38,474 nt of DNA from a virus (IMGVR_UViG_2778261226_000006), one strand, 5' to 3'. Counted from the first letter of the stretch, positions 1 through 35,854 are shown. The notes: generated by a model not told the origin, from the sequence alone. Program-made: numbers and translations.

Positions 1-1053
1 TTACGGGGTAATGCCAACCGCTGCCGCCACTTTGTCGCCACTTGGCAGCGTTGCCAGAGGATTGAAACGGAGCGCCGTTTCCAGATGATCTGGTGCCAGA
101 TGTGCGTAACGCATAGTCATTTTTATATCGTGGTGTCCGAGAATTTTTTGTAAGGCGAGAATGTTTCCACCCGACATCATGAAGTGCGCCGCAAATGTAT
201 GGCGCAGAACGTGTGTGAGTTGACCGCGAGGGAGCACGATAGACGTTTTTTCCATCACGGATAAAAATTGAAAATAGCAGTCTGTAAAGAAATTGAACCC
301 ATCAAGCGCCATGATCTCTTCGTAAAGCTCTTTACTGATAGGGATGCTTCTGTTTTTCTTCCCCTTCGTTCTGACAAAGGTAATTCGGTATTTGGTCACC
401 TGTGAGCGGGTAAGATTTACGGCTTCACGCCAGCGTGCGCCTGTGCTTAAGCATATCTTAACTACCAGTGCCAGAATCGGGTCCTGACGTTTACAATCAG
501 CCAGCAATTCAACAATCTGCTCATGGGTAAGCCATGCCATCTCTTTTTCTGCGATGGTGAATTTTCGCATGTTCTCCAGTGGGTTCGGATACGACCATTC
601 GCCCAGGCGGGATAGTTCGCTAAAAACACTACTTAGATAGCTTTGCTCCAGGTTAATGGTGACCGGGCTTGCTCCTTTCTTCCATTTCTCGCTGAAGTAG
701 ATCTCACCTGTCAGGCGTTTATCTCGATAGTGGGCAAACATTTTAGAGGTGAGATCGGTTGCTAGGGGATTGCCCAGAGCGTCAACCATCAACAGCAATT
801 TATCATAGACATGCTGCCCAGCGGTTAGAGATTTACCATGTAGTTTGAACCATAGCTCAACCACGTCTTTCAGTGTTCGACGATCCACTGATTCTCCCAG
901 CCAGGGCTTTGCTTCGGTTTCTTCCATCGTATGGCGCTCAAAAGCCAGAGCTTCGCCTTTGGTGGCGAATTGTTTACGCACACGACGCCCACTACGTCCG
1001 GCGGGGTAACATTCGCAAAGCCATTTTCCTGTGGTGAGTTTTCGTACTGCCAT
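1..1053 (-). CDS. int: Tyrosine integrase (P2/186-family phage integrase)
   Basis: Track ORF 1..1131 (-); preferred start is ATG at 1051-1053 (Met27 of track ORF) preceded by GGAGGG SD; C-terminal HxxR...Y signature (HVLRHTFAAH ... RYAHL); stop codon occupies window positions 1-3. Confidence 0.85.
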   Translation of the reverse strand: MAVRKLTTGKWLCECYPAGRSGRRVRKQFATKGEALAFERHTMEETEAKPWLGESVDRRTLKDVVELWFKLHGKSLTAGQHVYDKLLLMVDALGNPLATDLTSKMFAHYRDKRLTGEIYFSEKWKKGASPVTINLEQSYLSSVFSELSRLGEWSYPNPLENMRKFTIAEKEMAWLTHEQIVELLADCKRQDPILALVVKICLSTGARWREAVNLTRSQVTKYRITFVRTKGKKNRSIPISKELYEEIMALDGFNFFTDCYFQFLSVMEKTSIVLPRGQLTHVLRHTFAAHFMMSGGNILALQKILGHHDIKMTMRYAHLAPDHLETALRFNPLATLPSGDKVAAAVGITP

Positions 1054-1239
1054 AAAAAATGCCCTCCAATAGAGAGCATTTTTACTGTATGTATAACCAG
1101 TGTCAATGTATGAAATCCTGCGACCATACATCTCACTGAAGCCATAATGAAGTTGGCTATTTTTTGCTATGTGAGTATGTGACTTTTGCGGTTAGCCTGC
1201 GGCTCATTGTTATATTAGGCGCAGATATAAAAGCAAAAT

Positions 1240-8149: not shown

Positions 8150-8338
8150 ATGCAGGACTATTTTTTGGAGTCTTTGAAGCTCCAGCGCATTGATTTTTTT
8201 CTTAAGCTTGTAGCGGCTAGTGAGTGTAGTGATGAAGAGAAGGGGCTGGCCCTGCAGTGGGTTTCTGAATTGACTGATGAACTCATGGCAAAAATCAGAA
8301 GCCACGAATACAACCGCTCAATGGATGTCATCAGCTGA
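8150..8338 (+). CDS. Small hypothetical protein (SOS-controlled operon, first gene)
   Basis: ATG 8150 preceded by strong SD AGGAGGAAAG; 62 aa; track ORF 8048..8338 has a 5' extension through the promoter region. Confidence 0.45.
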   Translation: MQDYFLESLKLQRIDFFLKLVAASECSDEEKGLALQWVSELTDELMAKIRSHEYNRSMDVIS

Positions 8339-8348
8339 GGTGACTTTT

Positions 8349-8582
8349 ATGCGCATTGAAATAATGATCGATAAAGAGCAGAAGATTAGCCAGTCTACCC
8401 TGGACGCTCTGGAGTCCGAGCTTTACCGCAACCTGCAACCCATCTATCCCAAGACCGCTATCCGCATCCGTAAAGGGTCGGCAAACGGCGTTGAGCTGAG
8501 TGGCTTAAAGCTTGATGAAGACAAAAAGCGGGTGATGGAAATTATGCAACAGGTTTGGGAAGACGACAGCTGGCTGCACTAA
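8349..8582 (+). CDS. DinI-like protein (DinI / Tum C-terminal family)
   Basis: 77 aa starting MRIEIMIDK and ending ...QQVWEDDSWLH, matching the DinI pattern MRIEV ... W..D.W as I recall it; SD GAGGTG; downstream of LexA box. Confidence 0.7.
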   Translation: MRIEIMIDKEQKISQSTLDALESELYRNLQPIYPKTAIRIRKGSANGVELSGLKLDEDKKRVMEIMQQVWEDDSWLH

Positions 8583-9825: not shown

Positions 9826-10350
9826 ATGACTGTTTTACACCTTGTAGCAGACCACCTTGTTAAGCAGGCTAATACAACCCATAGAAAGGGGGAGGTGCAC
9901 GCAATATTAGCAGATGCATATGGTCGTTCTGCTTTTAATCGGTATTATTATGCTTGTTTTCTTAACGTCCGTGAGTTTGTTTCAACTATTGATTCCAATT
10001 GGGGCAAGGTCAAGCATGCAGATGTTCCAAAATTATTACGTGATAGTGTAAGTAGAAAGATAGAAGTTGAGCTCCAAAAATCAGAAAAAATTGGCGATAT
10101 AACTTTATGTGAATATAAATCTAAAAAGAGCTTAATACGTACTTCACTGAACAATATGGCTTCAACTATGGCATTGGCATATACAATTAGGGGAGTTGTT
10201 GATTATGAGCCGGAAATTGAGATGATATTCTGTAATGGCAGTTTTTCGATTAATAAAACATCAGTGGCTTCGGCTAAGGGGTGGCTACAAACCATTAATT
10301 CAGAAAGATCGAAGGTTACCAGAATTATGAAGGAGATTGGCTTTGTCTAA
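9826..10350 (+). CDS. Hypothetical protein, upstream gene of pair preceding the retron (candidate accessory/effector)
   Basis: 174-aa ORF from ATG 9826; overlaps the next ORF; no Walker, HNH, TM or other recognisable motif by eye. Confidence 0.6.
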   Translation: MTVLHLVADHLVKQANTTHRKGEVHAILADAYGRSAFNRYYYACFLNVREFVSTIDSNWGKVKHADVPKLLRDSVSRKIEVELQKSEKIGDITLCEYKSKKSLIRTSLNNMASTMALAYTIRGVVDYEPEIEMIFCNGSFSINKTSVASAKGWLQTINSERSKVTRIMKEIGFV

Positions 10351-11080
10351 CCAGAAAATATTATCAGAATTGTTGGTAAAATTCCCGTTTATAAAAGTTA
10401 AAGATGTAACAGATTTTATGGATACAATTCTGTTGATCATCCCAATTAACAAAATAGTACCATTGTCTGCTTCGAATAGTATAACAAAACGCCAGATATC
10501 TTTATTGGTGAAACGAATAACAGAAAAGCTAAATGTAAGAGTGTTGATTAGTTACTCACCATTTTCAGATAAAGACAATATTGAAGCGGCTTTAGTGGCG
10601 TTAGCGAGAAGTAATTTTAAAAAAGGGAAGATATCTGATTTGAATTTATCTTTCTTTGATTCGCAAAACGCAGTGCTTTATGTCTTTTGTAAAAACCTTA
10701 CATTATCAGAACGCGAGAAGTGGGAGTCGTTAGTTGTAGGGATATTAAACGGTTTTAATATAAAAGTGACTTCATTTGTATATGAGGCTAAAAATAATCC
10801 TGAACCTACAATGATGGTTATTTTAAGAGCGGCAAAAAAATGTCAGCCCTTTGATCTTCCAAGATTGTTCAGTCAACTTGATAATGGCGATTATCATATT
10901 GAATCACTTGATTGGCTGAATGGGAAGCTAGACAACTTACGTAAGAAAGGATTTTTATTAAGAAGCCATGACGGAACTTATAGAATGACATTGTCAGGGT
11001 TAGAAATAGTTCCAGTGACTAAATCTAGGCAAAGTTCTGATATAGAGAGGGTCCTTTATCTTGCACGCAAACATCTATAG
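10337..11080 (+). CDS. Hypothetical protein, second gene of pair preceding the retron (candidate accessory/effector)
   Basis: 247 aa as tracked from TTG 10337; likely start TTG 10343 with AAGGAG SD (10330-10335), implying translational coupling to the upstream ORF; alternating hydrophobic/charged N-terminal region, C-terminal segment KKGFLLRSHDGTYRMTLSGLEIV; family unknown. Confidence 0.6.
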   Translation: MALSNQKILSELLVKFPFIKVKDVTDFMDTILLIIPINKIVPLSASNSITKRQISLLVKRITEKLNVRVLISYSPFSDKDNIEAALVALARSNFKKGKISDLNLSFFDSQNAVLYVFCKNLTLSEREKWESLVVGILNGFNIKVTSFVYEAKNNPEPTMMVILRAAKKCQPFDLPRLFSQLDNGDYHIESLDWLNGKLDNLRKKGFLLRSHDGTYRMTLSGLEIVPVTKSRQSSDIERVLYLARKHL

Positions 11081-11089
11081 TGGTATATT
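11061..11089 (+). promoter_or_regulatory. Candidate sigma70 promoter for retron msr-msd-ret transcript
   Basis: -35 TTGCAC (11061-11066), 17-bp spacer, -10 TATATT (11084-11089); predicted start about 11096, coinciding with the a1 repeat. Confidence 0.45.
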
Positions 11090-11095
11090 CGCGTT

Positions 11096-11268
11096 GGTAG
11101 TGGCGTTCACGAGAGTATGCATCATGCTCATTTGTGAAGGTCGCGGACAGAATGTGCGCCTGCGAATCAGCAGTCGTTCCTTCGAAACGTCTGCTGATTC
11201 GCAGGCGTCATCAACGAAAGTTTTCATCAGCTTTGCTTAAGGATTGACCTTATGAAAACGCCACTACC
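11096..11268 (+). ncRNA. Candidate retron non-coding RNA (msr-msd)
   Basis: 12-nt perfect inverted repeat GGTAGTGGCGTT (11096-11107) / AACGCCACTACC (11257-11268) as a1/a2; GAGAG immediately after a1 (candidate branching G region); 17-bp perfect stem 11157-11173 / 11191-11207 as msd hairpin; directly upstream of and overlapping the start of the retron-type RT. Confidence 0.5.
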
Positions 11269-12229
11269 CTTATTTTTCACATTCACTGATGCCGAACAGT
11301 TTCTTAAGGCGTTGAGCACACCGCTGAGAGATAGATATTCTGCGGAACTTATTCGACTACAAGGCCTCAGGCTTCCCCCATTAGTTTCTTGGAGTATCTT
11401 GTCTGTTGCCATTGGCGTAAGCCCACAATTTATTACTTCGTTAATTAAGAATAAGTCAAAATACTATCGTGTTTTTTCTATTTCCAAAGGAAGAGGAAAG
11501 AAAAAAAGAATTATTGAAGCACCCAAGGTTAGTATAAAAATCATTCAGTCTTGGGTCGCTCATCATTTAAGCATTAATCATAGTCTTGGCATAAGTGAAA
11601 ATGCATATGCTTTTATCCCAGGTAAGAATGGGATATATGAAGCTGCAAGTAAACATTGTGGTGCAAAATGGATCCTGTCTATTGATTTAAGAGATTTTTT
11701 CCATACGATCACTTCAGATATAGTGATTTCAACATTAGTTGAAATCGGATATAGAGCCGATCAGGCTGCTAAATTGAGTGAATTACTTACCTTGAATCAG
11801 AGACTTCCGCAAGGTGCGCCAAGTAGCCCTGTTATCTCAAATTTAGTATTTAGGTCAACTGACTTAAAGATTAATGAGTTGATTTCTAATACGGGTATTA
11901 AATATACTAGATATGCTGATGATTTGACCTTCTCCGGTGATGATGAAACATTTGATATCGAGGAACTTAAAGATAATGTTGTAGAGTTGTTACTATCTGA
12001 TAATTGGGTTGTGGCTGAGGAAAAACTCAGAATAGCTAGGATTCCTAATAGATTAAAAGTACATGGTTTTCTAGTTCATGAAAATAAACCTAGATTGACT
12101 AAAGGCTATCGAAATAAAATTAGAGCATATAAACATTTATTGAGGACTGGGAAAATAGTTGAGAAGGATTTTGATAAAATTAAAGGGCATGTTAACTATA
12201 GTGAATATATTGATAGATTGAATGAGTAA
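11252..12229 (+). CDS. ret: Retron-type reverse transcriptase
   Basis: 325 aa; RT motifs LSIDLRDFFHTIT, LPQGAPSSPVISNLVF and YTRYADDLTFSG (YADD catalytic box), plus RLKVHGFLV in the position of the retron VTG motif; N-terminal Y..F.I.K..G..R.I..P pattern; close by-eye similarity to Ec86-type retron RT motifs. Confidence 0.9.
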   Translation: MKTPLPLFFTFTDAEQFLKALSTPLRDRYSAELIRLQGLRLPPLVSWSILSVAIGVSPQFITSLIKNKSKYYRVFSISKGRGKKKRIIEAPKVSIKIIQSWVAHHLSINHSLGISENAYAFIPGKNGIYEAASKHCGAKWILSIDLRDFFHTITSDIVISTLVEIGYRADQAAKLSELLTLNQRLPQGAPSSPVISNLVFRSTDLKINELISNTGIKYTRYADDLTFSGDDETFDIEELKDNVVELLLSDNWVVAEEKLRIARIPNRLKVHGFLVHENKPRLTKGYRNKIRAYKHLLRTGKIVEKDFDKIKGHVNYSEYIDRLNE

Positions 12230-13987: not shown

Positions 13988-15750
13988 AAAATCTCCACAA
14001 TATTGCTGGTATTGGCGGACTCGCCCTGCAGCGGTTCGTTAAACAGTGCGTGCATTGTTGCCCAGGCCAGATCGGCATGGCTGGCTTCTTCGCTGCGGCT
14101 GGCTTCATAGGTCGGGCGGTTGCCGCTGGCGGTGGTGGCGCGACGGATTGCCATAAATGACTGCGCAATGTCGGTGTGCCCGGCGTCAAACTCCAGACGG
14201 CGGTGGCTGATAATGTCGTAGGCCTTGAGTACCAGGGCGTTTTTAACGTTGGGGTTGTAGACAAACTCCCGGACGGCAGGAAAGAACGCTTTCACGTTCT
14301 CGTAAACTCCGTGACCGACACCTGTCGAGTCGATACCGATATAGGTCACGTTGTACTGTTCGGTCAGTTTTTTGATGGCGTCAGCCTGGGCGCGGAAGTC
14401 CATCCCGCGCCACTGGTGACGCTCAAGAATGCGAAACTTACCGCCTGGCACGGCTGGCGGTGCCACCACCACGCATCCGGCGCTGTCGCCGTTCTGCGTA
14501 CCTTTTGCCGGGTCATAACCGATCCACACTTCTCGCCAGCCAAACGGGCGCAGGGCCAGTGCATGAAAGTCGGTCCAGACTTCCCAACTGTCCACCATGC
14601 ATGCCTGCAGCTCGCTGAGCGGAAATACGGACGCGAGATCGTCCACGAATTCACACATCAGCAGGTTCTGGTATTCGTCCGGGCTGTATTCCATGCGCAA
14701 CTGGTCAAGGTCGAACAGGTTACAGCCGCCGCGCACCGCATCTTCCACGGTGACTATCTGGCGGTATTGCCCGTCTGCACACAGCAGGCCTGGAGCCAGA
14801 TTGCTGTGGGACAGGTCGATGTCCACCTTGTCGGCTTTATTGCGCCCACGGTTGAATAGCGCACCGGACCAGAACGGATAAGCACTGTGTGTCAGGCTGG
14901 ATGGCGTGGAAAAATAGGTTTGTCGCCATTTTTTGTGAATAGCCATACCGGAAGCCACTTTGCGCAGCTCCTGGAATTTCGGTATCCAGAAATATTCATC
15001 CAGATACAGGTTTCCGTGGTAACTCTGGGCCGTGCGGGCATTGGTGCCGAGGAAATACAGTGTGGCCCCGTTGGGAAGCACCATCGGATCGCCTTTCAGC
15101 TCCACTTCCACTTCTTTGGCGAAGTCGATGATGTACTGCTTAAAGACGTGGGCCTGTGCCTTGCTGGCGGAAAGGAAAATCTGGTTACGTCCGGTAAGCA
15201 GAGCGTCAATCAGGGCTTCATGGGCAAAGTAAAAGGTCGCGCCGATCTGGCGTGACTTCAGCAGGTTGCGGATGCGGTTGGTTTTTCCGGCTTCCCACCA
15301 GTGGCGCTGGTAGTTGAACATGGAGGAATGGAAGATTTCTTCCAGCTTCTCAATCTGCTCATCGGTGAAAACATTCTTTTCCGGCTGACGGCGCGGGCCT
15401 TTGTTGCGGTTGGCGACGTTAGGGTTTAAGTCGGCTTCGTTGCCGCCATTGTTAAACTTGCCGATCCGCGCGTGGCGTTCCGACTGGCGCGCCAGCAGGT
15501 CAATCTCTTTGAAATCTTTCCCTTCTTTGTGCTCCTTCATAATGAGCTGGCAGTAGCGTGCGGCGGTGGTGAGCTGCATCTGATCCAGCGGCCCATAGTC
15601 ACCCCACTTGTCGCGTTTCTTCCAGCTGTGAACGGTTGCAACTTTCTCGCCCAGCATTTCAGCAATGCGGGCTACACGGTATCCCTGAAAGTACAGCAGC
15701 ATGGCCTGCCGACGGGGATCGAGATCTGCGGGTGTCAGTGTGGTGTTCAT
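13984..15750 (-). CDS. P: Terminase large subunit (P2 gpP-like ATPase/nuclease)
   Basis: 588 aa, close to P2 P size; N-terminal HTH-like region, central ATPase region, C-terminal extension; divergent from O across a late-promoter region. Confidence 0.9.
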   Translation of the reverse strand: MNTTLTPADLDPRRQAMLLYFQGYRVARIAEMLGEKVATVHSWKKRDKWGDYGPLDQMQLTTAARYCQLIMKEHKEGKDFKEIDLLARQSERHARIGKFNNGGNEADLNPNVANRNKGPRRQPEKNVFTDEQIEKLEEIFHSSMFNYQRHWWEAGKTNRIRNLLKSRQIGATFYFAHEALIDALLTGRNQIFLSASKAQAHVFKQYIIDFAKEVEVELKGDPMVLPNGATLYFLGTNARTAQSYHGNLYLDEYFWIPKFQELRKVASGMAIHKKWRQTYFSTPSSLTHSAYPFWSGALFNRGRNKADKVDIDLSHSNLAPGLLCADGQYRQIVTVEDAVRGGCNLFDLDQLRMEYSPDEYQNLLMCEFVDDLASVFPLSELQACMVDSWEVWTDFHALALRPFGWREVWIGYDPAKGTQNGDSAGCVVVAPPAVPGGKFRILERHQWRGMDFRAQADAIKKLTEQYNVTYIGIDSTGVGHGVYENVKAFFPAVREFVYNPNVKNALVLKAYDIISHRRLEFDAGHTDIAQSFMAIRRATTASGNRPTYEASRSEEASHADLAWATMHALFNEPLQGESANTSNIVEIF

Positions 15751-25713: not shown

Positions 25714-26315
25714 TAAGTAAAGCTGTATTAAATAATGAACTCATCGCCACAAAGGCCGGAGACATTACCGTTTATAATTATGATGGTGAAACACGGGAAT
25801 ATATTTCCACATCAACTGAATATCTTGCTGTGGGTGTCGGTATCCCGGCATGTTCCTGTTTAGATGCTCCTGGCTCATATAAAGCTGGTTATGCAATTTG
25901 CCGTTCTGCAGATTTTAACTCATGGGAATATGTGCCAGACCATCGCGGTGAAATCGTCTATAGCACCGAAACAGGAGAATCAAAAGAAATCACAGTTCCG
26001 GGTGATTACCCTGAAAATACAACCACTATCGCCCCGTTAACGTCATACGATAAATGGGATGGTGAGAAATGGGTGACCGACACTGAGGCACAGCATAACG
26101 CCGCAGTAGACGCGGCAGAAGTACGGCGCCAGTCACTGATTGATGCGGCTATGGCTTCCATTAGTCTGATTCAGCTGAAATTGCAGGCCGGGCGGAAGCT
26201 GACGCAGGCAGAAACAACCCGGCTTAACGCTGTGCTGGATTACATTGACGCGGTGACTGCAACAGATATCAGCACCGCGCCGGATGTCATCTGGCCTGAA
26301 CTACCGGAGGCGTAG
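25710..26315 (+). CDS. G: Tail fibre assembly protein (P2 gpG-like), currently expressed orientation
   Basis: 201 aa; ATGA overlap with H stop; inside invertible segment. Confidence 0.75.
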   Translation: MISKAVLNNELIATKAGDITVYNYDGETREYISTSTEYLAVGVGIPACSCLDAPGSYKAGYAICRSADFNSWEYVPDHRGEIVYSTETGESKEITVPGDYPENTTTIAPLTSYDKWDGEKWVTDTEAQHNAAVDAAEVRRQSLIDAAMASISLIQLKLQAGRKLTQAETTRLNAVLDYIDAVTATDISTAPDVIWPELPEA

Positions 26316-26730
26316 GCCATTCAATATCTGGAGCACTGGAGGTATCAACCAGTTCCAGTGCGTCCAGATAATCCAGCCATAAATTATATTGTTCCAGCTC
26401 GTCACCTTTCAGACGACCAATAGCAGCTTTGCCAGGCCACTGATGGGTATTGATGTAGGTATTGACTTCTGAAACCAAAGATATTTTTTTCATTTCAGCC
26501 GCCAGCACCTCATCCTCTTTTGAAGGCGGCGGGGAATTAATCCATATTGGCCGTCCTGAACTGTCAGCGCCAATTTCTTTCCCTTCTGGATGCAGCCCAA
26601 GAAATTGCTCATATGTTTCTCTGGTAATTTCAATAACATCATCAGGAAGCGTTCCCGCATCCTCATATTCTGGAAACAATTCTTGCAGATAAAAACTTTT
26701 ACTTCCGGGTGAAAAGAATACTGAGTTCAT
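26287..26730 (-). CDS. Alternative tail fibre assembly protein (silent orientation)
   Basis: 147 aa on minus strand, convergent with G; C-terminal region (LWLDYLDALELVDTSSAPDIEWP) resembles G C-terminus (NAVLDYIDAVTATDISTAPDVIWP); follows alternative fibre exon. Confidence 0.7.
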   Translation of the reverse strand: MNSVFFSPGSKSFYLQELFPEYEDAGTLPDDVIEITRETYEQFLGLHPEGKEIGADSSGRPIWINSPPPSKEDEVLAAEMKKISLVSEVNTYINTHQWPGKAAIGRLKGDELEQYNLWLDYLDALELVDTSSAPDIEWPTPPVVQAR

Positions 26731-26732
26731 TC

Positions 26733-27199
26733 TTACCGTCCAATGATTAACGCTGAGACGCTGGTATCTGAAGGAAAGGCTGCATTCAGTGGTTTGTCGA
26801 CTTTGAACACAATCGTATTATTCCCCCTGACAGCGGCAAAAGAACAAACCGCCGTCGCGTATGAACCTGTAATATTACTGGATACACCACCATAGGCTGT
26901 TGTTGATACCAGAGGGATAACGCCCAGCACCTTATTAGGAAATACAAAGGGCAATGTGGCTGTGGCAATATAAGACTTATTAGAACCTGTGATGGCATAA
27001 GCATTATCAGTCATTCCATTCATCGCCACTGGGCCGCTTATACTTACAGTAACCATCTGAATGATTAGCCCGTCAGGTTGACGAATCACAAAATTTCCAT
27101 TGCCACCAGTAGCCGTCCAGAAAGACATATCAGGGATTTGGTTTTCCCCGTTGCCCACATTCCGTTTTGCCGCTTCTCCCAAACCAACGTTTAAGAAAA
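26733..27199 (-). CDS. Alternative tail fibre C-terminal exon (promoterless; fused to H N-terminus after inversion)
   Basis: Minus-strand ORF 26733..27227; the reading frame through the right crossover site encodes VGLGEA, matching LGLGEG at the left site in H, so inversion creates an in-frame fusion. Confidence 0.65.
27174..27199. other. Invertase crossover site, right (inverted copy)
   Basis: TTCTCCCAAACCAACGTTTAAGAAAA; left half TTCTCCCAAACCAA is the reverse complement of the TTGGTTTGGGAGAA half-site at 25241-25254. Confidence 0.7.
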
Positions 27200-27254
27200 T
27201 GCAGAGGTAACAGCTAACTGGCATCATCTCCGGTTTTTATTCAGGGGGATGATC

Positions 27255-27821
27255 ATGCTTATTGGCTATGTACGCGTGTCAACAAATGACCAGAACACCG
27301 ATTTGCAACGTAATGCACTGAACTGCGCGGGATGTGAGCGGATTTTTGAGGACAAAATCAGTGGCACTAAGTCCGACAGACCGGGGCTGAAAAAACTACT
27401 CAGGACACTATCGGTAGGAGACACGCTGGTTGTCTGGAAGCTGGACAGGTTGGGGCGCAGTATGCGGCATCTTGTTACGCTGATAGAAGAGTTGCGCCAG
27501 CGTGGTGTGAATTTCAGAAGCCTGACTGACAGTATTGATACCAGTACCCCAATGGGCCGTTTCTTTTTTCATGTCATGGGTGCCCTGGCTGAAATGGAAC
27601 GCGAACTGATAGTTGAACGCACCAGGGCAGGGCTGGCTGCAGCTCGTGCCAAAGGCAGAGTAGGTGGACGCCGTCCTAAGTTGACCACCGAACAGTGGGC
27701 ACAGATTGGGCGTTTACTCGAGGCCGGAGAATCAAGACAGCGTATTGCACTGATTTTTGATGTAGGCGTTTCTACCATTTATAGAAAATTTCCGGCAAAT
27801 AAGATCAATGAATCCCCCTGA
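27255..27821 (+). CDS. Serine DNA invertase (Gin/Pin/Cin/Hin family)
   Basis: Begins MLIGYVRVSTNDQNTDLQRNAL with catalytic Ser in YVRVS; near-colinear by-eye match to Gin along its length including C-terminal HTH; ATG 27249 is an alternative start. Confidence 0.9.
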   Translation: MLIGYVRVSTNDQNTDLQRNALNCAGCERIFEDKISGTKSDRPGLKKLLRTLSVGDTLVVWKLDRLGRSMRHLVTLIEELRQRGVNFRSLTDSIDTSTPMGRFFFHVMGALAEMERELIVERTRAGLAAARAKGRVGGRRPKLTTEQWAQIGRLLEAGESRQRIALIFDVGVSTIYRKFPANKINESP

Positions 27822-27963: not shown

Positions 27964-29136
27964 ATGGCTCAGGATTACCACCACGGGGTGCGCGTTGTTG
28001 AAGTCAACGAAGGCACCCGATCTATTACCACGGTGAGCACCGCCATCGTGGGTATGGTCTGCACGGGCGATGATGCCGATGCAAAAATGTTTCCTCTTAA
28101 TAAACCCGTGCTGATCACTGATGTGCTGACTGCCAGCGGTAAAGCGGGTGAGTCCGGTACTCTGGCCCGTTCGCTGGATGCCATCGCTGACCAGGCAAAA
28201 CCCGTGACCATTGTTGTGCGTGTGCCGCAGGGTGAAACGGAAGACGAAACCACGACCAATATCATCGGCGCAGTGACTGCTGAAGGTAAAAAAACAGGTA
28301 TGAAAGCCCTGTTATCTGCCCAGTCACAGCTCGGCGTTAAACCGCGCATTCTCGGCGTGCCAGGCCACGACACCAAGGCGGTAGCTACTGAGTTGCTGAG
28401 CGTGGCGCAAAGCCTGCGTGGATTTGCTTACCTGTCAGCGTATGGCTGCAAGACAGTGCAGGAGGCGATCACTTACCGCGAAAACTTCAGCCAGCGCGAA
28501 GGGATGCTGATCTGGCCTGACTTTACTGGCTGGGACACGGTGCTGAATGCCGAAGCAACGGCATATGCCACCGCCCGTGCGCTTGGTCTGCGCGCCAAAA
28601 TTGACGAGCAGACCGGATGGCACAAAAGCCTGTCCAATGTGGGCGTGAACGGTGTCACCGGAATTTCTGCAGATGTGTTCTGGGATCTGCAGGACCCGGC
28701 AACCGATGCAGGTCTGCTGAACCAGAACGACGTCACCACGCTTGTGCGTAAAGACGGTTTCCGCTTCTGGGGGTCCCGCTGCCTGAGTGATGACCCGCTC
28801 TTTGCCTTCGAAAACTACACCCGCACGGCGCAGGTGCTGACGGACACGATGGCAGAAGCACACATGTGGGCGGTGGATAAACCGCTTAACCCGTCGCTGG
28901 CCCGCGACATTATCGAAGGTATCCGCGCCAAAATGCGCAGCCTGGTCAGTCAGGGCTATCTCATTGGTGGTGATTGCTGGCTGGATGAGTCGGTGAACGA
29001 CAAAGACACGCTGAAAGCCGGAAAACTCACCATCGACTACGACTACACGCCAGTGCCGCCACTTGAAAACCTGATGCTGCGTCAGCGCATCACCGATCAG
29101 TACCTGGTGAATTTCGCCAGCCAGGTCAGCGCGTAA
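27964..29136 (+). CDS. FI: Tail sheath protein (P2 gpFI-like)
   Basis: 390 aa; SD AGGAGG; followed by tube gene; size matches P2 FI. Confidence 0.85.
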
Positions 29137-34825: not shown

Positions 34826-35044
34826 ATGATGATTTGCCCACTGTGTGGAAGTGCCGCCCATACTCGCAGCAGTTTTCAGGTATCTTCATTGACCAAAGAG
34901 CGTTACAACCAGTGCCAGAACATTAACTGCAGCCATACTTTTGTTACCCATGAAACTTTTGTTCGTTCGATTGCAACGCCAAAAGAGTCAAATCCGGTTC
35001 AGCCGCATCCAATGAAATCAGGACAGGTGGCGCTCTCTCTTTGA
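34826..35044 (+). CDS. ogr: Ogr-type zinc-finger late transcription activator
   Basis: Starts MMICPLCGSAAH with C-x2-C ... C-x4-C zinc-finger arrangement (CPLC ... CQNINC), matching the Ogr/Delta pattern; track ORF 34793 start is a likely extension (ATG at 34826 or 34829). Confidence 0.8.
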   Translation: MMICPLCGSAAHTRSSFQVSSLTKERYNQCQNINCSHTFVTHETFVRSIATPKESNPVQPHPMKSGQVALSL

Positions 35045-35112
35045 CTCTGCCGCCATTTTTTCACCATTGCTAAAAACAGTGATTCTAAAAATCATTGTTT
35101 TCGAATAAGTGC

Positions 35113-35631
35113 CTAGCATCCGATAAGGTCGTTTGCTTCAAACTTTGGCAAATGATACTCATTTGCCAAATGTTCGTTATCTTTGTTATTTTTTAAATAT
35201 TTGTATTTTAATGTATTTTTATCTTCATTGTATGATAATAAAGCTTCCCCGATAGGAACATCACGCCACCCTATTTGAATGCAAAGAAGGATAGTGACCT
35301 GCCCTTTATGGTTTAGCTTACCCGAGAATGTAAAGGTGCATTTCTCTTCATCAAGGCTTGTTGATGAACAGTTAGTGATAGTCCCTGCCAAATTGCCGAC
35401 GACATCTGATGACTCAATTTTTATGCTTATTATATTCTCATTATGGTTGCGAATATCACCAACATTGTTCCAGTTTTTTGAGACTAGAAGCTCAATAATT
35501 CTTTTTTTCTTAAGGCGTTTTACTTCCTTTGCCTGTGGTGAGTATAAGAGGTATGCGGGTATGCCTGCTACAATTGCCAGCACAGCTAATATAATGGTAA
35601 CCATCTGAAGTCCTTGTTCTTCTGCCGCCAT
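35113..35631 (-). CDS. AT-rich membrane-anchored hypothetical protein between ogr and the host junction (candidate moron)
   Basis: 172 aa; N-terminal hydrophobic helix MVTIILAVLAIVAGIPAYLL; Lys/Asn-rich; much lower GC than the phage core; start codon lies inside a 14-bp direct repeat. Confidence 0.55.
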   Translation of the reverse strand: MAAEEQGLQMVTIILAVLAIVAGIPAYLLYSPQAKEVKRLKKKRIIELLVSKNWNNVGDIRNHNENIISIKIESSDVVGNLAGTITNCSSTSLDEEKCTFTFSGKLNHKGQVTILLCIQIGWRDVPIGEALLSYNEDKNTLKYKYLKNNKDNEHLANEYHLPKFEANDLIGC

Positions 35632-35698
35632 TTTGCCGCCAAAGATAAGTAAAGTAGTTTCTAACTTATTGATTATGGAATGGAAGAATAGCAGGCAA

Positions 35699-35742
35699 CA
35701 AAAAACCCATCAACCTTGAACCGAAATGGCGGGGTTGATGGG
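35699..35742 (-). terminator. Rho-independent terminator downstream of ybjL
   Basis: CCCATCAACC (35706-35715) / GGTTGATGGG (35733-35742) 10-bp stem; on the minus strand followed by a U-tract (plus-strand A-run 35700-35705). Confidence 0.6.
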
Positions 35743-35854
35743 CTCCACAAAATGGGGACATCAAAGAAAAGCAGTGGCACTAATTAAGACTGATGCCCTG
35801 CGGAAAAGTTCTGCGGTTGTGCAAAAAAATTTCATTTTCAGGGCAACTTCAGTT

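What the first reader, a model, noticed from the sequence alone, without database searches (positions are those of the whole stretch)
35045..35636. AT-rich membrane-protein gene flanked by 14-bp direct repeats between ogr and the host junction
TCTGCCGCCATTTT occurs at 35046-35059, just after the ogr stop, and again at 35621-35634, overlapping the start codon of the 172-aa minus-strand ORF. The ORF is far more AT-rich than the phage core. The repeats suggest a discrete insertion (moron cassette) at the prophage right end, or partial att duplication.
Basis: seen in the sequence. Interest (0 to 1): 0.5.

Follow-up and report, generated by a model that had tools for sequence, protein, structure and literature searches.

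The report
Prophage accessory gene between duplicated att arms
The 14-bp repeats are binding sites for the phage integrase, present twice because one arm of the phage attachment site is duplicated. Between the two copies sits a rare, uncharacterised membrane-protein gene at the very end of a P2/186-like prophage inserted in the small-RNA gene rybB. This is an ordinary kind of phage cargo with an unknown function.

Summary
TCTGCCGCCATTTT occurs exactly at 35046 and 35621, 575 bp apart, around a 37% GC minus-strand ORF.

The repeats are not insertion scars. Each contains TGCCGCCATTT, the published 186-type integrase arm-binding motif (tgccGCCActt). The right copy is the working P arm of attR:
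- a tandem site pair;
- an IHF consensus;
- the 14-bp core AACAAAAAACCCAT, which is the 3' end of the host sRNA gene rybB.

The left copy is a roughly 60-bp relic of a second P arm. It is truncated 16 bp before where the core would be and fused 6 nt from the ORF stop.

About 1,119 of 5,426 complete E. coli genomes carry this prophage type with a single arm and no ORF. Three carry the ORF.

The ORF is a real gene. It belongs to a tiny family (about 10 representatives in 1.84 billion proteins). In the seven contexts that reach an att junction it is the outermost gene of a P2/186-like prophage or remnant, on the int strand. In five lineages the arm sites lie directly upstream of it.

The AlphaFold model shows an N-terminal membrane anchor plus an eight-stranded beta-barrel, inferred to face the cytoplasm. 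No known family matches. A role in phage exclusion or abortive infection is inferred, not shown.

The parts
1..1131 (-). Integrase gene of the 186 type; the window begins at its stop codon. attL lies just outside the window.
   Evidence: Pfam Int_N and Phage_integrase. 97.6% identical to the integrase of Klebsiella phage 4LV2017 and 55% to that of PSP3. attL was read in relative VG12A2.
22..43 (+). P' arm: tandem pair of integrase arm-type sites TGCCGCCACTT / TGTCGCCACTT, inside the int 3' end
   Evidence: Matches the 186-type consensus tgccGCCActt (PMC3448106).
34826..35044 (+). ogr (late-gene activator, Ogr/Delta zinc finger)
   Evidence: Pfam PF04606; RefSeq annotation of relatives.
35046..35106 (+). 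Relic P arm. The first arm-type site is intact (35048-35058, TGCCGCCATTT). The second unit is degenerate (TTTCACCATTG). Homology to the canonical single arm ends 16 bp before where the core would be.
   Evidence: Alignment to arms of phages without the cassette: about 80% over about 60 bp in the pairwise alignment, and 82-86% over blastn spans that also include 16 nt of ogr and reach 35101-35106.
35113..35631 (-). Accessory gene, 172 aa in its longest form. The probable start is Met10 (ATG 35604-35602, 163 aa). It encodes an N-terminal membrane anchor, a basic linker and an eight-stranded beta-barrel.
   Evidence: No Pfam, PHROG, PADLOC or NCBIfam family.
35144..35170 (+). Perfect 12-bp hairpin followed by a T-rich tract on the + strand, inside the ORF 3' end. 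Candidate terminator for ogr/late transcription.
   Evidence: Function is inferred only.
35621..35696 (+). Functional P arm of attR: tandem arm-type sites at 35623-35633 (TGCCGCCATTT) and 35634-35644 (TGCCGCCAAAG), and an IHF consensus AATCAATAAGTTA at 35662-35674 (minus strand)
   Evidence: The distance from repeat start to core end is 90 bp, the same as in phages without the cassette. The IHF consensus is one of 3 matches in the window. The layout matches the annotated attP of phage 186.
35697..35710 (.). att core AACAAAAAACCCAT, shared by attL and attR; it is the last 14 nt of rybB
   Evidence: attR annotation of phage 4LV2017. attL of VG12A2. Empty-site genomes match from 35697 onward. Rfam.
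35697..35775 (-). Host sRNA gene rybB, the integration target. It reads toward the accessory gene.
   Evidence: Rfam RF00110: 105 bits, E 2.8e-22, full length. rybB is a known site for P2-like prophages (PMC10121019 and PMC4048246).

Best explanation
The window holds a 186-type (P2-like) prophage integrated into the 3' end of the host sRNA gene rybB. The 14-mer is an integrase arm-type binding site.

The right copy belongs to the working P arm of attR. In order, this arm has a tandem site pair, an IHF site and the core. The left copy is the stump of a second P arm, left directly after ogr.

Between the two copies lies an accessory gene. In this phage lineage it is physically tied to the P arm.

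The most likely origin (inferred) has three steps:
1. A phage of the common ORF-less type integrated in tandem with a resident prophage or remnant that already carried the unit ORF - P arm - core next to rybB.
2. A deletion then fused the incoming phage's P arm, truncated 16 bp before its core, to the 3' end of the ORF.
3. This left one phage with ogr - relic arm - ORF - functional arm - core.

The gene product is a single-pass inner-membrane protein. Its orientation, N-terminus out and barrel in the cytoplasm, is inferred from the positive-inside rule. The barrel is a small eight-stranded beta-barrel.

The gene has no convincing promoter of its own. In the lysogen it sits just downstream of the rybB terminator on the same strand. 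In the circular phage it sits downstream of cI-int, across attP. I infer that it is transcribed by read-through.

I also infer that it acts at the membrane to exclude or abort superinfecting phage.

Shown: the anatomy, the identity of the repeats, the rarity of the gene, the reality of the family, and its constant position next to att.

Inferred: the route of origin, the mode of expression, the topology and the function.
For: Identity of the repeats:
- The 186-type arm-site consensus tgccGCCActt, with at least 2 direct repeats on each side of the core, is stated in PMC3448106.
- The GenBank record of phage 186 annotates arm-type sites (YAYCGCCAYTY), IHF sites and the core in the order B/ogr - terminator - arm sites - IHF - core - arm sites - orf69 - int. 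Its sequence there is CACCGCCATTCTATCGCCACTC.
- In the window, TGYCGCCAYTT occurs 6 times against 0.17 expected, all on the + strand. Four of the six are at 22, 33, 35048 and 35623.

The right copy is canonical:
- It is 90 bp from repeat start to core end, the same as the single arm in relatives.
- It carries an IHF consensus.
- The 206-bp ogr-arm-core junction is collinear in 1,119 of 5,426 genomes.

The left copy is a truncated arm.

Indel: relatives lack exactly 575 bp. Only 3 complete genomes carry the ORF.

Core and target.

The gene is real:
- 10 distant homologues at 23-42% identity share motifs.
- The AlphaFold model has pLDDT 82 and pTM 0.71.

Position next to att is constant:
- E. 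coli.
- Huaxiibacter: rybB - core - arm - ORF - terminator - ogr pseudogene.
- Serratia marcescens remnant: rybB, then an ssrA 3' fragment, then arm sites, then the ORF.
- S. grimesii: ssrA - arm sites - ORF.
- Salmonella and one other: the ORF overlaps the int stop by 4 bp, next to a tRNA attL.

The gene is kept in decayed prophages.

Against: - No experiment or transcript data bears on expression or function.
- No sigma-70 consensus promoter lies on the ORF strand between rybB and the ORF. Only weak candidates exist.
- The rybB terminator is a strong hairpin (about -24 kcal/mol for the whole folded RNA), so read-through may be slight.
- The fold match to Cap15 is no better than the matches to avidins or designed barrels. 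There is no sequence link to any defence family.
- No tandem-lysogen intermediate was found.
- The gene is absent from 50,697 sequenced phage records. A viable phage carrying it is therefore supported only by intact-looking prophages and one IMG/VR contig.
- One homologue (P0024) lies in a lambdoid-like contig, not visibly next to an att site.
Confidence: 0.7

Rival explanations
1. The 575-bp segment is a mobile cassette that inserted into the ogr-att spacer, and the 14-bp repeats are its target-site duplication.
For: Relatives have a single copy of the 14-mer at exactly the position where the segment is missing. An empty target site would look the same.
Against: Similarity continues about 60 bp past the 14-mer, at 74-80% identity. 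The segment has no terminal inverted repeats and no transposase or recombinase. The repeat is a known functional motif that is also present on the other att arm. In Huaxiibacter the orthologous gene has the arm sites at its 5' end, but a terminator rather than a repeat at its 3' end.
Confidence: 0.04
2. The two-arm, ORF-bearing form is ancestral in this E. coli lineage. The common ORF-less prophages arose from it by recombination between the two 14-bp repeats.
For: The ORF-arm unit is old and is found in several genera at rybB. Direct repeats of this kind can mediate deletion. The ORF-less junction has exactly the length that a precise deletion would give.
Against: A deletion product would carry the right-hand arm. 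Yet no genome among 5,426 has ogr joined to that arm: the best single-piece matches are 90% or less. Outside the core, the ORF-less arms are closer to the left relic (about 80%) than to the right arm (about 71%), while the flanking ogr is about 95% identical.
Confidence: 0.08
3. The gene is real, but it serves lysogenic conversion of host envelope physiology rather than defence against phage. It could, for example, be a membrane-tethered binding protein acting under envelope stress alongside RybB.
For: In the prophage it lies directly downstream of the sigma-E-dependent sRNA gene rybB, on the same strand (the sigma-E dependence of rybB is from established knowledge). It has a membrane anchor. 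It is retained in decayed prophages.
Against: Homologues sit next to ssrA or after int instead, so the link to rybB is not general. The protein evolves fast: 42% identity between orthologues, against 69-78% for the neighbouring ogr and D genes. That is more typical of conflict genes.
Confidence: 0.2
4. The ORF is a non-functional or unexpressed leftover in AT-rich junk DNA between two att arms.
For: No recognisable promoter. Very rare: 3 of 5,426 complete genomes. The length varies through a 12-bp tandem repeat.
Against: Full-length homologues at 23-42% identity share conserved motifs and the same architecture. The structure prediction is confident. The reading frame is intact in every E. coli locus read in full here, and the 12-bp variation keeps the frame.
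Confidence: 0.06

Closest known systems
attP of coliphage 186: left (P) arm with integrase arm-type sites, IHF site, and core in the 3' end of an RNA gene
   Same: Same order: ogr/B, then tandem arm-type sites at an 11-bp period, then an IHF site, then a core lying in the 3' end of a structured host RNA gene, then arm sites, then int on the opposite strand. Same site consensus.
   Different: The target here is the sRNA gene rybB, not tRNA-Ile. The integrase is only about 55% identical to its nearest characterised relative. One arm is present twice, with a gene in between. Binding has not been tested.
Accessory genes ('morons') of P2-like phages: P2 old, tin, fun(Z); 186 orf69; the defence hotspots of P2-like prophages
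   Same: AT-rich, dispensable and variably present cargo in an otherwise collinear phage. The slot flanking attP is also occupied in 186, by orf69. This window carries a type IX retron in the classical hotspot.
   Different: The gene lies directly against the att arm, not in the two hotspots described for P2 (my knowledge of Rousset et al. 2022, not checked here). It has no promoter or terminator of its own that I could find. It is unrelated in sequence to orf69 and to every family in PHROGs and PADLOC.
Cap15, the membrane effector of CBASS (PDB 7n34)
   Different: One predicted TM helix rather than two (my knowledge of Cap15). 14% identity. No profile match. No cyclase gene nearby. Equally good fold matches to avidins, Gid4 and designed barrels.
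Prophage superinfection-exclusion proteins of the inner membrane (P22 SieA, T4 Imm, HK97 gp15)
   Same: A small membrane protein encoded by a temperate phage outside its essential modules. This resemblance rests on my own knowledge and was not tested.
   Different: No sequence or profile similarity. No phenotype is known.
Lambda int/sib retroregulation
   Same: Integration at att separates or joins a gene and its upstream sequences, so expression can depend on whether the phage is integrated. Here int-attP-ORF in the circle becomes rybB-attR-ORF in the prophage.
   Different: This is an analogy of layout only. No regulatory element was identified.

Membership tests
186-type integrase arm-type binding site (attP arm) | Matches the consensus tgccGCCActt / YAYCGCCAYTY | tested here: met
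   TGCCGCCATTT at 35048 and 35623, and TGCCGCCACTT / TGTCGCCACTT at 22 and 33. Six matches to TGYCGCCAYTT against 0.17 expected. The consensus comes from PMC3448106 and the phage 186 record.
186-type integrase arm-type binding site (attP arm) | At least two direct repeats, one helical turn apart, on each side of the core | tested here: met
   Pairs at 22/33 and at 35623/35634, both with an 11-bp period and in the same orientation. In the relic pair at 35048/35059 the second unit is degenerate.
186-type integrase arm-type binding site (attP arm) | IHF site between the arm sites and the core; the core is shared by attL and attR | tested here: met
   IHF consensus at 35662-35674. The core AACAAAAAACCCAT is present in attR (window) and in the attL of a relative.
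186-type integrase arm-type binding site (attP arm) | Bound by the N-terminal domain of the cognate integrase | not testable with these tools
   A 186-group integrase gene is present. Binding needs a footprint or a gel shift.
Moron (phage accessory gene unit in the sense of Hendrix and colleagues) | Present in some and absent from other, otherwise collinear, phage genomes | tested here: met
   3 genomes carry it and about 1,119 do not, at the same junction.
Moron (phage accessory gene unit in the sense of Hendrix and colleagues) | Base composition different from the surrounding phage genes | tested here: met
   37% GC against 51-55%.
Moron (phage accessory gene unit in the sense of Hendrix and colleagues) | Its own promoter and terminator, allowing expression from the repressed prophage | tested here: inconclusive
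   No consensus promoter on the ORF strand. Only weak candidates at 8-9 of 12 matches. No terminator was found after the ORF on its own strand.
Cap15-like CBASS effector | Transmembrane N-terminus plus a C-terminal beta-barrel | tested here: met
Cap15-like CBASS effector | Sequence or profile similarity to Cap15 | tested here: not met
   No PADLOC hit for the protein or for 10 family members, apart from one PycTM match at E 0.031. No PDB sequence hit.
Cap15-like CBASS effector | Encoded next to a CD-NTase | tested here: not met
   The neighbours are ogr and rybB/ybjL, or int, ssrA and similar genes in relatives.
Transposable or cassette insertion with target-site duplication | The repeats are limited to the duplicated target, the element has defined ends (inverted repeats), and a mobilising enzyme is present or known | tested here: not met
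   Homology extends about 60 bp. There are no terminal inverted repeats. The segment holds only this ORF.

The most novel reading that the evidence does not exclude
The gene founds a new family of single-gene anti-phage effectors: membrane-tethered beta-barrels acting by exclusion or abortive infection. These would travel welded to the attP arm of 186-like phages. They would be switched on by integration itself, because insertion into the 3' end of a strongly transcribed host RNA gene puts the promoter-less gene under read-through from that host promoter. The host gene would be sigma-E-dependent rybB here and ssrA in Serratia. Defence would then be coupled to envelope stress.
Probability: 0.1. 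Interest if true: 0.65.

Novelty: new member of a known kind. Interest (0 to 1): 0.33.

Why it matters
The result turns an apparent insertion scar into a readable piece of att-site anatomy. It shows how a temperate phage can pick up cargo at its attachment site: att arms from two elements end up side by side and a deletion welds them together.

It also flags a tiny, unannotated protein family that sits at the outermost edge of P2/186-like prophages in at least five enterobacterial genera and survives prophage decay. That makes it a reasonable, cheap candidate for a phage-resistance screen.

None of this overturns current understanding. Integration into rybB, arm-type sites and prophage cargo genes are all known.

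Tried and rejected
- **Family searches.** Pfam, PHROGs, PADLOC and NCBIfam scans of the ORF gave nothing significant. A PADLOC scan of 10 family members gave only one weak PycTM match. A PDB sequence search with the family profile matched only transmembrane helices.
- **Fold searches.** Foldseek against the PDB and against viral models gave no match at E <= 0.001. The AFDB50 library was not available. The single-sequence AlphaFold model was poor, at pLDDT 50; the model built with the alignment was used instead.
- **Locus scans.** The search for related loci with the wide alignment failed because no stretch was conserved enough. With the narrow alignment, the viral and metagenome scans returned only further E. 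coli copies.
- **Sequenced phages.** tblastn of the ORF and of the Salmonella homologue against 50,697 phage records found no match.
- **Precise deletion product.** A search for ogr joined to the right arm found none.
- **Phage 186 Orf69.** This gene occupies the slot between int and attP. I tested whether it is related; it is not.
- **Target-site duplication reading.** Rejected.
- **Host hairpin next to the core.** I first took it for the ybjL terminator. Rfam showed it is the rybB sRNA gene.
- **Literature.** Searches for the protein accessions and for a P2-like prophage at ybjL found nothing on the protein.
- **Promoters.** Promoter scans were inconclusive.

Full report
**1.
- The 14-mer TCTGCCGCCATTTT is present exactly twice, at 35046-35059 and 35621-35634 on the + strand.
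- A second exact copy of a 14-mer in 38 kb is expected about 3e-4 times (my arithmetic). With up to two mismatches there are 4 matches against 0.53 expected.
- The ogr stop is at 35042-35044.
- A 172-codon ORF runs 35113-35631 on the minus strand. Its longest-form ATG lies in the right repeat.
- The ORF has 37.4% GC, against 51.2% for the prophage and 54.6% for its late genes.

**2. The setting.**
- The window is a P2-like prophage of the 186 type. It has int (1-1131, minus), a CI-type repressor (1447-2022), late genes, gpD and ogr.
- To the right lie the host genes ybjL, ybjM and grxA.
- The hairpin between the prophage and ybjL, which I first took for the ybjL terminator, is the sRNA gene rybB (35697-35775, minus strand; Rfam 105 bits, full length).
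- Klebsiella phage 4LV2017, whose integrase is 97.6% identical, has an annotated attR, CAGGCAACAAAAAACCCAT.
- The attL of the E. coli relative VG12A2 reads ...TAGATAACAAAAAACCCAT|TTATG....
- Genomes with an empty site match the window from 35697 onward.
- The common core is therefore AACAAAAAACCCAT (35697-35710), the last 14 nt of rybB.
- Integration of P2-like prophages into rybB is already described: PMC10121019 (hotspot 29) and PMC4048246 (island Kpn38RybB).

**3. What the repeats are.**
- Nilsson et al. [quoted passage not shown]
- The phage 186 record annotates such sites (YAYCGCCAYTY) in the order B/ogr - terminator - arm sites - IHF - core - IHF/Apl - arm sites - orf69 - int. The 186 sequence there is CACCGCCATTCTATCGCCACTC.
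- The 14-mer contains TGCCGCCATTT.
- In the window, TGYCGCCAYTT occurs six times against 0.17 expected, always on the + strand. Four of the six are at 22 and 33 (a tandem pair inside the int 3' end, the P' arm) and at 35048 and 35623.
- The right repeat is the first unit of a tandem pair (35623, 35634). It is followed by a perfect IHF consensus at 35662-35674, one of three in the window, and then by the core.
- The distance from repeat start to core end is 90 bp, exactly as in relatives that have only one arm. The right repeat is thus the working P arm of attR.

**4. The left repeat is a second, broken P arm.**
- Beyond the 14-mer the two copies stay similar: 74% over 35 nt without gaps and about 60 bp when aligned.
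- The left copy aligns with the single arm of ORF-less relatives as far as 35101-35106. Identity is about 80% for the arm alone and 82-86% over blastn spans that also include 16 nt of ogr.
- Its second site unit is degenerate (TTTCACCATTG). It ends 16 bp short of where the core would be and 6 nt from the ORF stop codon.
- The segment has no terminal inverted repeats and no recombinase.
- Reading the repeats as a target-site duplication is therefore rejected.

**5. Distribution.**
- Among 5,426 complete E. coli genomes, 1,119 carry the ogr - arm - core junction of this prophage type. It has the same length as a hypothetical precise deletion product.
- Only three genomes carry the ORF.
- Relatives lack exactly the 575 bp between the repeats.
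- No genome has ogr joined to the right-hand arm sequence.
- The ORF-less arms resemble the left relic (about 80%) more than the right arm (about 71% outside the core).
- The ORF and the right arm therefore came together from a different source than ogr and the relic.

**6. The gene is real, and its family lives at att junctions.**
- A word-based search found only the E. coli cluster: 18 sequences, with full-length forms of 172, 176 or 180 aa.
- An exhaustive HMMER search of 1.84 billion representatives found ten relatives at 23-42% identity, all aligning from residues 8-12 onward.
- The contexts are as follows:

| Organism or locus | Arrangement |
|---|---|
| Huaxiibacter chinensis | rybB - core - arm pair TGTCGCCACTTTGTCGCCATTG - ORF (42% identity) - terminator - ogr pseudogene - truncated D |
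| Serratia marcescens | rybB - core - arm - about 470 bp - ssrA 3' fragment - terminator - arm pair - ORF, in a remnant lacking late genes |
| Serratia grimesii | smpB - ssrA - arm pair - ORF |
| Unplaced contig (L022) | arm pair about 30 bp upstream of the ORF start, next to tail-fibre genes |
| Salmonella and one other | the ORF overlaps the int stop by 4 bp and is followed by a tRNA-type attL |
| One homologue (P0024) | lambdoid-like contig, away from any visible att site |

- In the first five rows the gene is on the int strand and is the outermost gene of a P2/186-like element. In five lineages (the E. coli window plus rows 1-4) the arm sites lie directly upstream of it.
- Because Huaxiibacter has a terminator, not a relic arm, between ogr and the ORF, the relic is specific to the E. 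coli lineage.

**7. Origin of the duplicated arm (inference).** The simplest route has three steps.
1. A common ORF-less phage integrates in tandem with a resident ORF-bearing prophage or remnant at rybB. Such remnants exist.
2. This produces the order ...ogr - P arm - core - [resident] - ORF - P arm' - core - rybB.
3. A deletion from the end of the first arm to just past the ORF stop yields the present structure.

No intermediate was found.

**8. The protein.**
- With the family alignment, AlphaFold gives pLDDT 82 and pTM 0.71. The model has a long N-terminal helix (3-49) containing the hydrophobic segment, then an eight-stranded up-and-down barrel (53-171).
- The segment after the hydrophobic helix is strongly basic in the window protein (KEVKRLKKKR) and in nearly all full-length relatives. 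By the positive-inside rule (established knowledge) the barrel should face the cytoplasm.
- Foldseek finds nothing at E <= 0.001.
- There is no profile link to Cap15 or to any defence family, and there is no cyclase gene nearby.
- The resemblance to Cap15 is therefore one of architecture, not of membership.

**9. Expression (inference).**
- No consensus promoter lies on the ORF strand. The weak candidates include a hybrid of host -35 and phage -10 elements at attR, which is also seen in Huaxiibacter.
- In the prophage the gene follows the rybB terminator on the same strand.
- In S. grimesii the homologue follows ssrA.
- In Salmonella the homologue is translationally coupled to int.
- In the circular phage the gene would lie downstream of cI-int, across attP.
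- Read-through transcription is the common denominator, but it is unproven.

**10. Function.** The features are a membrane anchor, fast divergence (42% identity, against 69-78% for the neighbouring ogr and D genes), retention in decayed prophages, and a cargo position. On these grounds I commit to a membrane-level role in excluding or aborting superinfecting phage, with roughly one chance in three of being right. An envelope-physiology role is the main alternative.

**11. Verdict.**
- The repeats are explained by known att-site biology.
- The gene is a new, uncharacterised member of the broad class of prophage cargo genes.
- Interest is modest.

Noticed in passing
window 35697-35775 (-): Full-length RybB sRNA gene. 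The prophage att core is its last 14 nt, so the phage integrates into an sRNA gene much as relatives integrate into tRNA or tmRNA genes. This is already reported in the literature (PMC10121019, PMC4048246).
   Followed up: yes
window 9826-12229 (+): Three adjacent genes match the PADLOC models HEPN_IX, HTH_IX and RT_IX (E 1e-52 to 4e-129). This is a type IX retron in the cargo hotspot between the replication gene and the portal gene. GC is 36%. A DinI-like gene lies at 8277-8582.
   Followed up: partly
window 26287-27821: A Hin/Cin-type serine invertase (27249-27821, +) lies next to minus-strand ORFs for a tail-fibre assembly protein and a fibre C-terminus (26287-27227). This suggests an invertible host-range segment.
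   Followed up: no
window 35565-35576, compared with L003, L005, L006 and L015: A 12-bp unit (TGCTACAATYGY) in the transmembrane-coding part of the ORF is present once in the window and twice in most relatives. The cluster lists proteins of 172, 176 and 180 aa. The membrane helix therefore varies by whole four-residue steps.
   Followed up: partly
window 35144-35170 (+): A perfect 12-bp inverted repeat with a 3-nt loop, followed by a T-rich tract on the + strand, lies inside the 3' end of the minus-strand ORF. It could be the terminator of ogr/late transcription, now embedded in coding sequence.
   Followed up: no
window 14921-14931 and 29054-29064 (+): Two further exact matches to the arm-site pattern TGYCGCCAYTT lie inside late genes, on the same strand as the att-arm sites. 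Fewer than 0.2 matches are expected in the whole window.
   Followed up: no
L018 5330-6010 (Serratia marcescens): Nested att relics. rybB, its core and an arm pair are followed about 470 bp later by a 3' fragment of ssrA, a terminator, a second arm pair and the ORF homologue. It looks as if an ssrA-specific att half was carried into a rybB-integrated element.
   Followed up: partly
L014 5633-5818 (Huaxiibacter chinensis): The ogr next to the orthologous gene has an in-frame stop and gpD is truncated. The accessory gene is therefore kept intact in a decaying prophage.
   Followed up: partly
L004 756-2432 (E. coli VG12A2): The closest ORF-bearing relative carries a DUF4041 gene between cI and int that the window lacks. 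This is another variable cargo slot.
   Followed up: no
L016 1158-1409 (phage 186 Orf69): The gene between int and attP in phage 186 encodes a protein made of LAPDGTYVGG-like repeats. It is unrelated to the family studied here.
   Followed up: yes
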